Virus record (IMG/VR): IMGVR_UViG_3300037225_000932
Coordinates: 64,001-128,000 of that record
Reading direction: 5' to 3' (one strand)
Length of the DNA: 64,000 nt
Source of the DNA: a virus
The notes below the pieces were generated by a model. The model had not been told where the DNA came from, made no database searches, and was given only the letters and a program-made list of their open reading frames with translations. The stretch's first letter is position 1; each line of letters starts with the position of its first letter. Of this stretch, positions 48,490 to 64,000 are shown one piece after another. The position numbers and the translations under genes are program-made.

Positions 48490-48920
48490 GGGAAAATCTC
48501 TTTAGGGTACCCCCTTAAACTATAAATCTATAATTAAATTGATATAAAAAGAGAGGTTGGAGATTAAAAAGGTCTAGGCTACCAGTATAAAGAGCGTTTT
48601 TGTATAGATAAGCATGGTAGGCGTATGGGGTGGCACATTACCCTGATTTTTTTAATAAATATGTAGCGCATATACCCTAGTCGAAATAAAGTGCCCCCAT
48701 CTCTCTCTTGATAGTGGGAGGTGGAGGACTTATGTATCTTGACTATTTCTTTTTAATTAAAGAGTAAGTGTTAGGAAGTTACATCCCAACCAAGCCTATA
48801 TCGAGAAGCTCTTACTCACCCCCGGAAGCCCGCGTCCCCCGATCTCAGCGTATGTTTCTTCTCATTCTCGGAAGCCCGCGTTTCTCATACTCTTTTAGAA
48901 CTTTATGCTCATTTTCGGGG

Positions 48921-49000
48921 AAAAACTCGACTATCAAACCTAAGCGTTTGATTTTAACCTCTCCGCATCGCTTTGACCGATTATCTCAGTCGCTTCCTTT
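48921..49000 (-). ncRNA. candidate small multibranch RNA
   Basis: ORF-less module; closing stem AAAACTC/GAGTTTT with GACTGA/TCGGTC and ATCAAAC/GTTTGAT hairpins. Confidence 0.45.
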
Positions 49001-49060
49001 GAGGAGTTGAGTTTTCTTTTACTCTCATTTAGAACTTATTTGTTCTTTTCAGGGAAAGTA

Positions 49061-49249
49061 TTACTTGCCTGCCGCCAAGACATTCTTGTCATGAATAGCG
49101 CCATAAAGCTCATCCCAAGCTTCATGAAGCGAATTTGCTTCGCCGCAGAAGATACCTCCATCGCCATATACATATTTGCTACCTTGTTTGTCGATCCAGA
49201 AATTGTTCTCTCTGGCGTAGGATTGAACTTGAGTAAAAGTAAGACGCAT
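49061..49249 (-). CDS. small hypothetical protein (resembles 50462..50656)
   Basis: AAGGAG RBS downstream of array motif. Confidence 0.75.
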   Translation of the reverse strand: MRLTFTQVQSYARENNFWIDKQGSKYVYGDGGIFCGEANSLHEAWDELYGAIHDKNVLAAGK

Positions 49250-49336
49250 TTTTTTATTCTCCTTGGTATTATACCAGAACTTTATGACACTTTTCGGGGG
49301 AATTACTTTTGCGCAAAAAAATCCCCTTTTGGGGGA

Positions 49337-49687
49337 TTATACTGCGATGGCCAAACCCGCGGCCTGGAGGCGTTCTAAGCGGGGGGGCAGGTGGCAGGGG
49401 GCCGCATGGCGGATTGTATCCAAGGATGCCCCAGGATGCTTAGCAATGGTCGCTAGAATGGCGTTCTTGGTTTTCTGGCTGATGCCGTTCTTGCGGCCGG
49501 TAGGAACCTTGATATTGAAATGGCATTCATGCCTGGTGAAAACGGTTTCCAGGCATTTTGCCACCATCATCTGTCCCATCCTATCGTATTTTCCCCCATT
49601 CAGTTTGAGCCTGGTCCAGACCTTTCGGGCATCGAGAAGTTCATCAAGGCAGGTGTTGATCATCCTGATATCTTTGCTCGTAAGCAT
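49337..49687 (-). CDS. hypothetical basic protein
   Basis: AAAGGG RBS, own motif, hairpin terminator. Confidence 0.7.
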   Translation of the reverse strand: MLTSKDIRMINTCLDELLDARKVWTRLKLNGGKYDRMGQMMVAKCLETVFTRHECHFNIKVPTGRKNGISQKTKNAILATIAKHPGASLDTIRHAAPCHLPPRLERLQAAGLAIAV

Positions 49688-49756
49688 CGTTATGCCCTTT
49701 TATTGGAGTAATCTTTTAGAACTTATTCTTTTTTATCAGGGCAAAAATAAATAGAT

Positions 49757-49916
49757 AAAAAAAAGGAGGCCGACTGAGTTAGTTTAAGGCTAAGGAGTTA
49801 GCTAAGCTCGTTGGCGGTTACTACTAGTCGGCCTGCTCGTCCGCTATATCTCGGCAGAAGTTTTAGGATACGCTACTCAGCGGAGGGTTTCGCGTAAACT
49901 TTTACTTCTGTTGCAC
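49757..49916 (-). ncRNA. candidate pseudoknotted RNA (copy A)
   Basis: ORF-less module; interleaved stems 49904-10/49855-61 and 49879-84/49840-45; terminal hairpin with T tract. Confidence 0.55.
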
Positions 49917-50115
49917 ATTCATTTAGAACTTTATTGAGATTTTCGGGGCATTTATTTTTGCGCAAAAAAAACCCTTGAAGTTGGCATACGTTTTGTGCCA
50001 TTTCAAGGGGTGAACAATGCTTCCAAGTCTGGAAGCGACAGAAAGCCGCAACATTTATTTAGAACTTATTTGTTTTTTTCGGGGCATTTATTTTTGCGCA
50101 AAAGAAAGAGGGGAT

Positions 50116-50316
50116 TTAACCCTCATCCATATCAGCTTCCCAATTGTCTAGGGAATGATCGTCATCATCCCCGTCGTCGATAGTATCTTCAATAAAATCC
50201 TCTAAAATTTCGTAATCTTCGTAATCCTCATCTTCGAGATTTGGCCCATCGTAGAGCGGGGCGACATTATCGCAACCTTGGCAGTCGGGATTTTCGCAAT
50301 GATCGCAGGGGTGCAT
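50116..50316 (-). CDS. small very acidic protein with CxxC-x3-CxxC
   Basis: AAAGGA RBS; D/E-rich. Confidence 0.7.
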   Translation of the reverse strand: MHPCDHCENPDCQGCDNVAPLYDGPNLEDEDYEDYEILEDFIEDTIDDGDDDDHSLDNWEADMDEG

Positions 50317-50461
50317 TTTGCGGTCCTTTTCTTTGACTGAGGATTTAGAACTTTATTGAATTTATCAGGGCATTTGTTTTTGCGCAAAAAAAAAAGAGAA
50401 TTGCCAGGAAACGGATTATCAGTCCGGTCCTAGGTTCTCTTTAATTTATGTCGTTTTTTTT

Positions 50462-50656
50462 TCAGGCTTCCACTTCAGCGGGCATTCCAACCAGTTCTAA
50501 GATCTCATGGTAAAGGCACTGTAAGTCATCGCAGAGACAAAGCTCGGTTCCCTCTTCTGAGAGCAAAACGTAACTGGACCCTTCCCGTAAAATGCTCATG
50601 TCATTGTTGGCGGCCAGGTGTTTCAGGTAGGAAAGGGTAATCAGCATGGCATTCAT
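50462..50656 (-). CDS. small hypothetical protein
   Basis: own motif and AAGGA RBS. Confidence 0.7.
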   Translation of the reverse strand: MNAMLITLSYLKHLAANNDMSILREGSSYVLLSEEGTELCLCDDLQCLYHEILELVGMPAEVEA

Positions 50657-62123: not shown

Positions 62124-62206
62124 CTTGCCTTTTCCTTTATGTTATACTCTTAGAACTTTAGTTCCCACTTTTCAGGGAGATTTTTTTTCGCGCAAAAAAA
62201 AATAGT

Positions 62207-62413
62207 TCACAAATAACTTTTATTCAACTCTATATCATAAGGTTCATCATAATATAGATAAGGATTATCCTTAATATGCGAATTTACTTCTTCTAAAGAA
62301 GTAAAAATGCCAATAATACAATGATCAGTAGAACGTGTTGCCCCTAAAACCCAAACTTTAGTGATAACTTTATCCATCTTTTTTACTCTAAAAAAGTTTT
62401 TGCTCACTTTCAA
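62207..62413 (-). CDS. small hypothetical protein
   Basis: KVWVL...IIGIFTSLEE pattern; start uncertain. Confidence 0.6.
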   Translation of the reverse strand: MKVSKNFFRVKKMDKVITKVWVLGATRSTDHCIIGIFTSLEEVNSHIKDNPYLYYDEPYDIELNKSYL

Positions 62414-62521
62414 AACTCATTTTTTCTACATTTTTATCTAAGTCCCTTGTTTCTCAACCACTTATGTTATTTTTTCGCAAGAAATAAAAAACTTTTCCAC
62501 ACGGGTAAAAAAAAGTTTTAT

Positions 62522-62752
62522 CTACTTCTCTTTAGGACCAATCTTATACTCAGAAGGAACAAATTTATGCCATAGATTACCAGCCTGCTTAAAGATAGTA
62601 ACCCTCTTTGGAGACTTAATAATAAATAAAGTCTCATCTTCATTCGCTTTTACATCAAAATCAGCAATTTGCGCAACAGAATATCCAGCATTCTGATACA
62701 TCGTGATAATTACACACGGAATACCTGCCGGATCAACTCGATGATTTTTCAT
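62522..62752 (-). CDS. small hypothetical protein
   Basis: 76-aa ORF between repeat elements. Confidence 0.6.
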   Translation of the reverse strand: MKNHRVDPAGIPCVIITMYQNAGYSVAQIADFDVKANEDETLFIIKSPKRVTIFKQAGNLWHKFVPSEYKIGPKEK

Positions 62753-62841
62753 GTTTTTTACCTAACCTCTTGGAAAATAAACCACTTAGGTAATTTTTTT
62801 CGCAAGATTAAAAAACTTTCTCCCGACGTAAAAAGATATCT

Positions 62842-63051
62842 TTAGAAACCAACAATGTCAGCCAAACTAACAGCAAAAAGCTCCTTAGCGGTCCACCCCT
62901 CTATAGCAAAATCACTATTATTGACTGTAATATCGCTTAAAACAACGATATCATGGTCCGGACCACCCATAAACTCGAAAATACCTTCCCTGCCAGACCA
63001 AAACGGATGACCACTCTTAACCTTATACTTCTCACCTTTAACCAGCTTCAT
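62842..63051 (-). CDS. small SH3-like protein
   Basis: AAGGAG RBS; LVKGEKYKVK....GREGIF. Confidence 0.65.
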   Translation of the reverse strand: MKLVKGEKYKVKSGHPFWSGREGIFEFMGGPDHDIVVLSDITVNNSDFAIEGWTAKELFAVSLADIVGF

Positions 63052-63141
63052 GATAATCTCCTTAAATTCTTTATTTTATAGGAACTTAGATTAAAAAATC
63101 AGGGAAAGAATAAAAACTTTTCCACACGGGTAAAAAAAGTT

Positions 63142-63348
63142 TTATGCTGCTACAGAAATACCAGTTTCAACCGTTTGGTGGATAACAATGGTGCCACCCT
63201 TATACCGATAAGGCACATTCGCCTTCAAAGTCTCAGCTAAACCAACCAAACCATACTTCCCAAGCCACCAATTAACATATTCGGCAGCTTCAGTAAGGTC
63301 CAAACAAACCGGACTCACCACTTCACCATTCTCGTAAACCTTAAACAT
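63142..63348 (-). CDS. small hypothetical protein
   Basis: AAGGA RBS after motif. Confidence 0.65.
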   Translation of the reverse strand: MFKVYENGEVVSPVCLDLTEAAEYVNWWLGKYGLVGLAETLKANVPYRYKGGTIVIHQTVETGISVAA

Positions 63349-63638
63349 CTTAATTTCCTTCCTTTTCTTTGTTAGTGTTACTTCTTTAGAACTTTATTTC
63401 CCCTTTCAGGGAAAACTTCAAAGAAGTTTTACCTTCAGTTAGGGAAAACTTTAATCTTCTTGACTAATAATGTAATAAATAAATAATGAAACTAAGAACA
63501 TAACAACTAAAAAAACTTGAGGCTCTTGAGTTTCCATAACCTTTTTCTCTATTTTTATCTAACTCCAGTAATTTCAGTGGCTTACGTTAATTTTTTCGCA
63601 AGAATAAAAAAACTTTCTCTCGACGAGAAAAGACATCT

Positions 63639-63911
63639 TTAACCCTTACGAATTTCTAAATTTAAGTTGATCCTAATAACCCAATACTCCACTCCCTCTT
63701 TCATTACATAAATACCATGCCACTTACCATCTAAAATCAATTCTTTTGACTGTTGAGACCGAGATCCCCAATCACGCCCATCTATACTAGCAAATGGATA
63801 CTTTTCACATAAAACTTCATAATCGTAAACCCCAATAGGCATATTATTCTCAAACGTTACTAAAAACATGATAGTCTTGTCCTTTTCTTCGTTAAGTGCT
63901 TTATTTCTCAA
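63639..63911 (-). CDS. small hypothetical protein
   Basis: probable start at MFLVTF after AAGGA; resembles 59426..59677. Confidence 0.6.
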   Translation of the reverse strand: MRNKALNEEKDKTIMFLVTFENNMPIGVYDYEVLCEKYPFASIDGRDWGSRSQQSKELILDGKWHGIYVMKEGVEYWVIRINLNLEIRKG

Positions 63912-64000
63912 GAACTTAGATAAGATTTTCAGGGAGAGAATAAAAACTTTTCCACACGGGCAAAAAAAGTTTTATCTCTTCAGTAAGTTAGATAATTAAA

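What the first reader, a model, noticed from the sequence alone, without database searches (positions are those of the whole stretch)
48894..63934. 15-kb array of about 46 single-cargo expression modules headed by one non-sigma70 motif
Seen: CCCYGA-N13/14-GTTCTAAA recurs roughly every 110-900 bp, always in one orientation. Each copy is followed by one small ORF (rarely several) or a structured non-coding stretch, often ending in a hairpin with a T tract. Cargo GC content varies strongly. Knowledge: promoter-headed shufflable early cassettes (PeSL elements) exist in T4-type phages, and SPO1 has a host-takeover module, but those use sigma70-type promoters. Inference: an early host-takeover library read by an alternative or phage sigma/RNAP and reshuffled through the repeat, delivering both proteins and RNAs.
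Basis: partly seen in the sequence, partly recalled or inferred. Interest (0 to 1): 0.85.

Follow-up and report, generated by a model that had tools for sequence, protein, structure and literature searches.

The report
Phage-specific promoter heading 46 mini-cassettes
An uncultured 173-kb phage runs a whole 60-kb arm of its genome from about 86 copies of one unusual promoter, and in the last 15 kb nearly every tiny orphan gene or small RNA has its own copy; this resembles the shuffling gene cassettes of T4-type phages, but the promoter is probably read through the phage's own sigma factor.

Summary
Observation confirmed. CCCYGA-N13/14-GTTCTAAA occurs 36 times exactly in the window (0 expected), all on the minus strand. 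A weight matrix finds 46 copies at 48,901-63,915.

It is not confined to that stretch. There are 86 copies, all on the minus strand, heading the whole leftward arm of the 173-kb contig. Spacing is 2-5 kb upstream and about 280 bp at the distal end.

It behaves as a promoter. It sits after terminators, and 13 copies have an ATG exactly 13 nt after the G of GTTCT (P about 6e-7). This places the start site there and gives leaderless mRNAs.

No phage RNA polymerase was found, but there are two sigma genes. One is a two-domain sigma of a Planctomycetota-type family, encoded at the head of this arm. A distant phage carrying its orthologue also has about 49 one-strand CCCTGA boxes and a dense distal array. 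A host sigma or an activator is not excluded.

Cargo is mostly orphan genes of 50-200 aa plus about 12 ORF-less units. Shuffling has only indirect support.

Closest known: PeSL cassettes of T4-type phages. The scan has noted PeSL-like arrays in other phages, and other first readers noted this same stretch.

The parts
48894..63940 (-). Dense distal part of the promoter-headed arm: 46 units, each starting with tttcCCCTGA-N13(14)-ATAAAGTTCTAAA
   Evidence: exact copies, 0 expected; weight-matrix scan; unit table
54317..54343 (-). Best-scoring promoter copy (44 bits): CCCTGA box, 13-nt A/T-rich spacer, GTTCTAAA box
48894..48920 (-). Last (most downstream) promoter copy of the arm; ORF-less cargo follows
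63908..63934 (-).
51451..51660 (-). Leaderless 69-aa ORF: its ATG is exactly 13 nt after the G of GTTCT. The same geometry holds for ORFs starting at 51404, 52987, 53696, 55225, 55520, 55960, 59384, 60133 and 60523
   Evidence: 13 of 88 sites, P about 6e-7
54428..54925 (-). 165-aa cargo gene with a Shine-Dalgarno site; its unit (promoter at 54,973) has 56% GC and the protein has no homologue outside this phage. It is a paralogue of the 61078-61476 cargo and of genome 143097-143534
61078..61476 (-). 132-aa cargo gene. Its promoter plus 5'UTR is 82% identical to that of the 54,973 unit, although the proteins are only 28% identical
58902..59384 (-). Leaderless 160-aa cargo with a HAD_SAK_2 (RNA-repair-associated HAD) domain; one of the few cargos with a family match
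   Evidence: (76 bits)
56320..56536 (-). ORF-less unit with its own promoter; weak Rfam match to bacterial 23S rRNA positions 1097-1144
   Evidence: (21.5 bits, E 0.0044)
54170..54311 (-). ORF-less unit ending in a 14-bp terminator hairpin; the most structured of the ORF-less units (z -6.7)
57790..57999 (-). ORF-less unit, fold z -4.3
51010..51203 (-). ORF-less unit, fold z -4.1, ends in a terminator at 51080-51053
61568..61612 (-). Example of a unit-ending intrinsic terminator (19-bp stem plus T-run) directly before the box and the next promoter; others lie at 60835-60863, 54174-54206, 53040-53057, 52766-52784 and 49320-49338
50378..50388 (-). Example of the palindromic TTTTGCGCAAAA box, 8-11 nt upstream of CCCTGA (about -52 to -40, where an UP element or operator would lie); present before 14 of the 46 promoters, nearly always after a terminator
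61650..61678 (-). Perfect TTGACA-17-TATAAT consensus inside the array, heading an about 85-nt hairpin-plus-terminator unit; a possible host-sigma-driven small RNA

Best explanation
The motif is a phage-specific, two-block promoter. A CCCTGA box lies at about -32 to -27, and a long -10 region ATAAAGTTCTAAA lies at about -18 to -6. Transcription starts at the A 13 nt after the G of GTTCT. Host core RNA polymerase reads it with an alternative sigma. The most likely reader is the phage's own two-domain sigma ('sigma2'), encoded at genome 170,711-171,526 on the minus strand, at the head of the same arm. About 86 copies drive the whole 60-kb leftward arm. That arm holds accessory and RNA-repair genes, sigma2 itself, orphan genes and small RNAs. 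Upstream the promoters head operons of 2-5 kb. In the last 15 kb (the finding) almost every small gene or ORF-less RNA has its own copy. About a third of those units also have their own terminator and a TTTTGCGCAAAA box. The distal 15 kb is therefore a hyperplastic region of self-expressing mini-units, organised like a PeSL region of T4-type phages. Shown: the motif, its strand and extent, the start-site geometry, the sigma genes, the absence of a detectable RNA polymerase gene, and the parallel architecture in one distant phage. Inferred: which sigma reads it, its timing, and any role of the repeated heads in recombination.
For: Promoter identity. The motif occurs on one strand only, the strand of the genes (86 against 2). 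It lies directly after intrinsic terminators where these exist, so it must act on DNA to start new transcripts. The ATG lies exactly at offset 13 in 13 of 88 copies, 12 of them opening ORFs of at least 40 aa, against a mean of 2.3 at other offsets (P about 6e-7). T at offset 12 and A at offset 13 are also conserved in units with a Shine-Dalgarno site. ORFs with a Shine-Dalgarno site start 13-35 nt further on. The motif does not fit the sigma70 consensus, and sigma70-type matches are not enriched (41 against 34.6 +/- 5.5). The -12 to -7 hexamer TTCTAA lacks the A-11 and T-7 of canonical promoters (established knowledge of sigma70-type -10 elements). Reader. No T7-type or multisubunit RNA polymerase domains were found. 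There are two sigma70-family genes. Sigma2 has regions 1.2, 2 and 4 joined by a disordered linker of about 19 aa and has no sigma-3 domain. Its region 2 is closest to group-1 sigmas but lacks their WW dyad. It heads the arm, in an operon behind a variant copy of the motif. The only phage found with a sigma2 orthologue (35% identity, in a syntenic RNA ligase-sigma-next gene trio) also has 49 yyCCCTGA boxes on the gene strand against 3 on the other. Each is followed after 13 nt by a related box, AT(T/C)(G/A)T(A/T)AA, and the copies again run from sparse to dense into an array of small ORFs. The motif is absent from five Planctomycetota genomes that carry cellular members of the sigma2 family.
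Against: Sigma2's own operon sits behind a member of the same promoter class, in both phages. In known cascades the regulator gene belongs to the preceding class, so this arrangement fits a host-read early class at least as well, unless a weak overlapping host-type promoter or self-activation starts it. The CCCTGA box is invariant between the two phages, yet the predicted region 4.2 recognition helices differ strongly (SRENIRLLE against SRPWAKHHE). This argues against simple reading of the box by sigma region 4. The box is centred near -30 and not -33 to -35, which is the geometry of an activator box. With only one relative, co-occurrence of sigma2 and the motif is a single observation. The contig is estimated 88% complete, so a polymerase or regulator could be missing.
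Confidence: 0.55

Rival explanations
1. The motif is the early promoter class, read by a host-encoded sigma (an unusual primary sigma or an abundant alternative one). Sigma2, being one of the first genes behind it, would then direct a later class elsewhere in the genome, and the FliA-like sigma1 the late class. This is an SPO1-like cascade.
For: The sigma2 operon lies behind a member of the class in both phages. Promoter-dense arrays of small orphan genes are typically host-read early regions, as in the PeSL regions of RB49/phi1 and the SPO1 host-takeover module (established knowledge). The CCCTGA box is invariant while the phage sigma's region 4.2 has diverged. Cellular relatives of sigma2 exist throughout Planctomycetota, so a host paralogue could share the specificity.
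Against: The -10 region lacks A-11 and T-7, so a canonical primary sigma should not open it. The motif is absent from five Planctomycetota genomes (1 match against 4 control matches). The -10 boxes differ between the two phages, which is easier to explain if each phage's own sigma has drifted. No second strong motif for sigma2 to read was found in the rest of the genome. A few canonical TTGACA/TATAAT consensus sites in intergenic positions hint that the host's primary sigma is ordinary.
Confidence: 0.25
2. Sigma appropriation of the T4 MotA type: the CCCTGA box at about -30 is bound by a phage activator protein, not by sigma region 4, and only the -10 region is read by a sigma (host or phage).
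For: With the start site at offset 13, the box is centred near -30, about 13-14 bp from the -10 hexamer. That is the geometry of MotA boxes (established knowledge of T4 middle promoters). The box is invariant between two phages whose sigma region 4.2 helices differ.
Against: No MotA or AsiA homologue was looked for or seen. The -10 region is not sigma70-like, unlike T4 middle promoters. A two-domain sigma with a short linker could also account for the short spacing.
Confidence: 0.1
3. The FliA/WhiG-like phage sigma1 (genome 51,077-51,904, plus strand) reads the motif.
For: It is the other phage sigma. The sequence TAAAGTT inside the motif resembles the sigma-28 -35 element TAAAGTTT (established knowledge).
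Against: No GCCGATAA-like -10 follows at the sigma-28 spacing, and nothing is conserved beyond offset 13. Such a reading would place the start site well past offset 13, inside the ORFs whose ATG sits at offset 13. Sigma1 lies in the opposite-strand arm with the helicase, ribonucleotide reductase and structural genes, which suits a late role. No sigma1 orthologue lies on the related phage fragment that has the motif, though that fragment is only 42% complete.
Confidence: 0.07
4. The repeat is not a promoter but a recombination, packaging or RNA-processing site.
For: It is a highly conserved repeat of about 30 bits that flanks unrelated cargo, which would also suit a recombination site.
Against: No tyrosine recombinase gene was found. 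The repeat has no attC-like imperfect palindrome. It has a fixed geometry to start codons, including 13 leaderless starts, and lies after terminators. Its strand follows the genes across 60 kb.
Confidence: 0.03

Closest known systems
PeSL (promoter-early stem-loop) cassettes in the hyperplastic regions of T4-type phages RB49/phi1, PST/T4 and nt-1/KVP40 (Arbiol et al. 2010, PMC2839356; Comeau et al. 2014, PMC4122927)
   Same: Dozens of near-identical composite terminator/promoter joints (about 50 per genome in phi1 and RB49). They are concentrated in a region of small genes of unknown function and sit just upstream of orphan genes. Stop codons of the upstream gene lie inside the A/T-rich joint, followed by a Shine-Dalgarno site and a start codon.
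   Different: PeSL promoters match the E. coli sigma70 consensus and are read by the host holoenzyme. Here the consensus is CCCTGA-N13-GTTCTAAA and the phage carries its own sigma. Only about a third of the joints here have a stem-loop. The same promoter also heads all the longer operons of a 60-kb arm. About a quarter of the units carry no ORF, and about a fifth of the mRNAs are leaderless. Recombination between copies and mini-circles, the defining behaviour of PeSLs, could not be tested.
Bacillus phage SPO1: host-takeover module and the sigma cascade (host sigma-A early; gp28 middle; gp33/34 late)
   Same: A large lytic phage without its own polymerase that redirects host core enzyme with phage sigmas to promoters of non-host consensus. 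It also has a promoter- and terminator-dense cluster of small genes at one end of the genome (established knowledge; PMC13401047 abstract).
   Different: In SPO1 the dense small-gene module is read by the host sigma-A and the phage-sigma promoters are not arrayed at this density. Sigma2 is not related to gp28 beyond the sigma70 superfamily; it belongs to a Planctomycetota-type family.
Group-4 (ECF) type two-domain sigma factors
   Same: Sigma2 has only sigma-2 and sigma-4 domains joined by a short disordered linker.
   Different: Its sequence is closest to group-1 region 2 and it keeps region 1.2. The promoter lacks the ECF 'AAC' -35 and 'CGT' -10 signatures. No anti-sigma gene was identified.
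T4 middle promoters (MotA box at -30 plus sigma70 -10; MotA/AsiA sigma appropriation)
   Same: The upstream box is centred near -30, about 13 bp from the -10 hexamer.
   Different: The -10 region is not sigma70-like, and no MotA or AsiA homologue is known here.
Integron cassette arrays
   Same: A one-directional row of short units with unrelated cargo.
   Different: Integron cassettes are mostly promoterless, are bounded by attC sites and need an integrase. Here every unit has a promoter, there is no attC-like site and no tyrosine recombinase gene.

Membership tests
PeSL cassettes of T4-type phages | Promoter part matches the host sigma70 consensus (TTGACA-17-TATAAT) | tested here: not met
   Consensus is CCCTGA-N13-GTTCTAAA; sigma70-type matches are not enriched (41 against 34.6 +/- 5.5)
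PeSL cassettes of T4-type phages | A stem-loop that can terminate upstream transcription is part of the joint | tested here: inconclusive
   A strong hairpin plus T-run precedes about 10-15 of the 46 promoters; the rest abut the previous ORF
PeSL cassettes of T4-type phages | Concentrated in a variable region, immediately upstream of small genes of unknown function | tested here: met
   46 joints in 15 kb; cargo of 50-206 aa with almost no family matches; none shared with the only relative
PeSL cassettes of T4-type phages | Insertions, deletions and replacements between close relatives have their ends in the joints; mini-circles form between neighbouring joints | not testable with these tools
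Phage-sigma-dependent promoter class (SPO1 gp28 type) | Phage encodes a sigma70-family protein and no RNA polymerase | tested here: met
   Two sigma genes; no PF00940, PF00562 or PF00623 match
Phage-sigma-dependent promoter class (SPO1 gp28 type) | The promoter is used only when the phage sigma is present | not testable with these tools
   Needs in vitro transcription or infection time-course data
Phage-sigma-dependent promoter class (SPO1 gp28 type) | Motif and sigma occur together in relatives | tested here: met
   One relative only: G001 has the sigma2 orthologue and 49 one-strand CCCTGA boxes. Other phages with more distant sigmas or RNA ligases lack the box
Sigma-28 (FliA) promoters | TAAA-N15-GCCGATAA | tested here: not met
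   TAAAGTT is present, but no conserved GCCGATAA-like element follows
ECF sigma promoters | -35 with AAC and -10 with CGT | tested here: not met
   Consensus
Integron cassette array | Tyrosine-recombinase integrase and attC sites | tested here: not met
   No PF00589 match in the genome; the joints are promoters, not imperfect palindromes

The most novel reading that the evidence does not exclude
A clade of Planctomycetota-associated phages has a private sigma/promoter pair of about 30 bits. The repeated promoter-terminator heads serve both as expression signals and as recombination joints. Under this reading the distal array is a self-expressing, continually exchanged library of orphan proteins and small RNAs aimed at the host, an integron-like gene library without an integrase. 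The RNA cargo would include a candidate mimic of the ribosomal GTPase-associated centre.
Probability: 0.2. Interest if true: 0.8.

Novelty: new variant of a known kind. Interest (0 to 1): 0.55.

Why it matters
If sigma2 reads this motif, the pair is a compact sigma/promoter system with 86 natural promoter variants of graded strength. It would be useful as an orthogonal expression switch, and it would give a first view of transcription control in phages of Planctomycetota-like hosts, which are barely studied. The array gives about 46 ready-delimited candidate host-takeover or anti-defence products. About 12 are small RNAs and about 10 are leaderless mRNAs, each with predicted 5' and 3' ends, so they can be cloned and tested one at a time. 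It also extends the PeSL idea (repeated regulatory joints around orphan genes) beyond sigma70 promoters and beyond T4-type phages.

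Tried and rejected
Relatives and related sequences:
- Near-identical relatives: megablast of the array and of a structural block against 50,697 phage records gave no match.
- A 17-base motif pattern in IMG/VR gave 5 single matches, consistent with chance.
- A unit-specific 23-mer gave none.
- A cargo protein scan gave none.
- Sigma2 as a single query in viral contigs gave none.
- 80 metagenome loci and 80 viral loci found with sigma2 or RNA-ligase alignments: only G001 (and the same phage in L050/L130) has the box.

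Motif and RNA-family tests:
- tRNA array idea: no tRNAs in the window.
- Rfam: nothing reached a gathering score.
- A second genome-wide motif for the other sigma: k-mer and upstream surveys found none. The only other strand-biased repeat is coding (GYSGYSG).
- The earlier lead RAAGGA-N17-GWA is not significant: 11 against 5.0 expected, shuffle maximum 11.
- CCCTGA upstream of cellular sigma2 homologues: not enriched.
- 'Stop codon borrowed from the next promoter' as evidence of shuffling: 28 of 64 promoters overlap an upstream stop, but at many different positions. This is what tight packing against an A/T-rich joint full of stop triplets would give.

Full report
**Context.** The window is bases 64,001-128,000 of a single 173,351-bp virus contig. 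IMG/VR classes it as linear, and CheckV estimates 88% completeness. The plus-strand part carries a helicase, ribonucleotide reductase, large terminase, a portal fusion and other structural genes. GC is 24-36% over most of the window but 39-42% at 48-56 kb.

**Observation.** GTTCTAAA occurs 44 times in the window against 5.7 expected. Of these, 38 are minus-strand copies between 48,894 and 63,392.
- The two-block pattern gives 30 (CCCTGA) plus 6 (CCCCGA) exact copies, all on the minus strand, with none in 100 shuffles.
- A weight matrix built from the copies finds 86 sites on the minus strand and 2 weak ones on the plus strand in the whole genome.
- With two hand-added variants, 46 sites lie at window 48,901-63,915, spaced 123-929 bp.
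- The consensus is tttcCCCTGA(a/t)aaa-N-ATAAAGTTCTAA(A/T/G). It carries roughly 30 bits, an upper estimate because the copies were picked with a pattern.

**Extent.** The motif does not stop at the window's edge. Copies run from genome 112,901 to 172,951, always on the minus strand.
- Near the head of this arm they stand 2-5 kb apart, before operons of several genes.
- Towards the distal end they close up to one per roughly 280 bp.
- Weaker variants of the -10 box (GATATAAA, AATGTAAA, TTTCTAAA) are mostly in the upstream part.
- The finding is therefore the dense tail of a 60-kb, single-promoter-class arm and not a separate array.

**Why it is a promoter, and where transcription starts.**
- Where intrinsic terminators exist, they lie directly upstream of the motif. 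The motif must therefore start new transcripts.
- Downstream, only two positions are conserved: T at offset 12 and A at offset 13 from the G of GTTCT.
- In 13 of 88 copies an ATG sits exactly at offset 13, and 12 of these open ORFs of at least 40 aa. Offsets 8-10 and 12 have none, and the mean over other offsets is 2.3 (P about 6e-7).
- These are leaderless mRNAs, and they fix the start site.
- The other coding units have an AGGA-type ribosome site and a start codon 13-35 nt further on.
- With +1 at offset 13, TTCTAA occupies -12 to -7, ATAAAG occupies -18 to -13, and CCCTGA occupies -32 to -27.
- The hexamer lacks the A-11 and T-7 that canonical primary sigmas need (established knowledge). 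Sigma70-type matches are not enriched in the region or in the genome.

**Anatomy of the 46 units.**
- About 10 are leaderless ORFs of 53-160 aa.
- About 23 are ORFs of 55-206 aa with a Shine-Dalgarno site.
- About 12-13 have no credible ORF.
- A few units have 2-4 ORFs (for example 60,146 and 63,085).
- The ORF-less units fold with z-scores from -0.5 to -6.7, and five are at or below -3.3. Coding units average -1.25 +/- 1.3. Several, but not all, ORF-less units therefore look structured.
- A strong hairpin plus T-run precedes 10-15 of the 46 promoters.
- The palindrome TTTTGCGCAAAA lies 8-11 nt upstream of CCCTGA, at about -52 to -40, before 14 of them. It nearly always accompanies a terminator. 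Outside the window, 4 and 1 of 42 promoters have these features.
- The other promoters abut the previous ORF, and 28 of 64 overlap its stop codon at varied positions.
- Unit GC ranges from 0.31 to 0.56.
- Cargo is almost all orphan. Of ten proteins scanned, one has a HAD_SAK_2 domain and one has a sub-threshold L7/L12 C-terminal match. The 165-aa high-GC cargo has no homologue among 5.8 billion proteins.

**Who reads it.**
- No T7-type or multisubunit RNA polymerase domain is present, so host core enzyme must be used.
- The phage has two sigma genes.
- Sigma1 (plus strand, 51 kb) is FliA/WhiG-like: 183 bits against a cut-off of 189.6.
- Sigma2 (minus strand, 170.7-171.5 kb) lies at the head of the arm.
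  - It has regions 1.2, 2 and 4, a disordered linker of about 19 aa, and no sigma-3 domain.
  - Its region 2 is most like group-1 sigmas, but where they have YATWWIRQ it has YIVNSLRM.
  - The fold search returns sigma chains in holoenzymes.
- All 80 best cellular relatives of sigma2 are in Planctomycetota, mostly Phycisphaerae. This points to a host of that phylum (inference).
- The motif is absent from five such genomes.

**The one informative relative.** It is an 82-kb viral fragment, G001 (IMGVR_UViG_3300022916_000010, 42% complete).
- It shares a syntenic trio with this phage: RNA ligase (47% identity), sigma2 (35%) and the next gene (38%).
- It has 49 yyCCCTGA boxes on the gene strand against 3 on the other. 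Each is followed after 13 nt by AT(T/C)(G/A)T(A/T)AA.
- Its copies again run from sparse to a dense array of small ORFs of raised GC at 50-65 kb.
- Sigma2 family, box and architecture therefore travel together, though in only one case.

- In both phages the sigma2 operon itself sits behind a member of the class. This suits a host-read early class unless the class activates itself.
- The CCCTGA box is invariant, while the predicted region 4.2 helices differ.
- The box is centred near -30, the place of an activator box.
- The rivals (a host sigma, a MotA-like activator, sigma1) are set out with their tests.

**Shuffling.**
- Self-comparison of the arm shows that repeats are limited to the heads of 50-100 bp. 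The exception is one 579-bp tandem duplication at genome 132,433-133,661.
- There are several dispersed paralogue pairs or triplets among the cargo. Examples are genome 143,097 / 125,078 / 118,428; 160,584 / 122,647; 129,354 / 125,716; and 116,775 / 115,451.
- Two paralogous units (promoters at window 54,973 and 61,524) share 82% identity over promoter plus 5'UTR, while their proteins are only 28% identical. This suggests exchange or homogenisation of heads.
- Four longer genes of the arm are collinear between G000 and G001, but none of the window's cargo is shared. At 35-47% core identity this says little.
- No tyrosine recombinase was found.
- Direct tests (unit order in close relatives, circles) were impossible.
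- Shuffling at the heads is therefore plausible by analogy with PeSLs but is not shown.

**Comparison and novelty.**
- The nearest described system is the PeSL-rich hyperplastic region of T4-type phages. It has about 50 terminator/promoter joints per genome, just upstream of orphan genes (PMC2839356; PMC4122927).
- This case fails the defining sigma70-consensus feature, and its recombination behaviour is untested. It works like a PeSL region but is not shown to be a member.
- The use of phage sigmas on host core enzyme is known from SPO1 and T4 (established knowledge).
- What is new is the combination of four things:
  - a private, very information-rich, non-canonical promoter, probably tied to a Planctomycetota-type two-domain phage sigma;
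  - use of that promoter for an entire 60-kb arm;
  - extreme unit density;
  - frequent leaderless and ORF-less cargo.
- The scan's own notes list PeSL-like arrays in other uncultured phages, and other first readers noted this same stretch. I rate it a new variant of a known kind.

**Limits.** The host is unknown, there are no RNA data, there is only one distant relative, and the contig may be incomplete.

Noticed in passing
window 56320-56536 (minus strand): ORF-less unit with its own promoter gives a weak Rfam match to bacterial 23S rRNA positions 1097-1144 (21.5 bits, E 0.0044). Other first readers flagged it as a mimic of the GTPase-associated centre. Its overall fold z-score is only -1.1.
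   Followed up: partly
window 61716-62123 (minus strand): 135-aa cargo protein with a sub-threshold match to the ribosomal L7/L12 C-terminal domain (24.4 bits, cut-off 25.9). Together with the rRNA-like unit, this hints that the array targets the ribosomal stalk or GTPase centre.
   Followed up: no
window 61650-61678 (minus strand): Perfect TTGACA-17-TATAAT consensus between two units, followed by a short hairpin and the 61,612-61,568 terminator. Possibly an about 85-nt small RNA made by the host's primary sigma.
   Followed up: partly
window 62200-63990 (minus strand): A second, decayed type of joint: a hairpin (aaaactttt...aaaagtttt), then either a degenerate CCCTGA promoter or cTTGCGAAAAAA followed by AGATAAAA-like boxes, in front of four ORFs of about 68-76 aa. 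It looks like an older, eroding part of the array.
   Followed up: partly
window 26105-27412 (plus strand): Protein made largely of GYSGYSG-type repeats (23 copies of GTTATTCAG in frame), probably a fibre or collagen-like structural protein.
   Followed up: no
genome 171724-172938, 140321-141091 and window 58902-59384 (all minus strand): Three RNA-repair-type genes sit under the same promoter class: a T4 Rnl1-like RNA ligase, an RlaP nucleotidyltransferase and a HAD_SAK_2 domain protein. This suggests a counter to host tRNA- or RNA-cleaving defences.
   Followed up: partly
genome 10985-12184 (minus), 40679-41968 (plus), 161079-162326 (minus): Three TnpB/IS605 OrfB-like genes are scattered in the phage genome.
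   Followed up: no
window 50980-51050 and 55238-55300 (minus strand): Two units share an extra upstream element of about 40 nt (ttacatattaaat.gaaatatcagg) between the TTTTGCGCAAAA box and the promoter; function unknown.
   Followed up: no
G001 (L045-L049), about 50-65 kb: The related phage's dense array also has higher GC (0.41-0.43) than the rest of its genome (0.32-0.39), as in this phage. In both, the cargo may come from a higher-GC source such as the host.
   Followed up: partly
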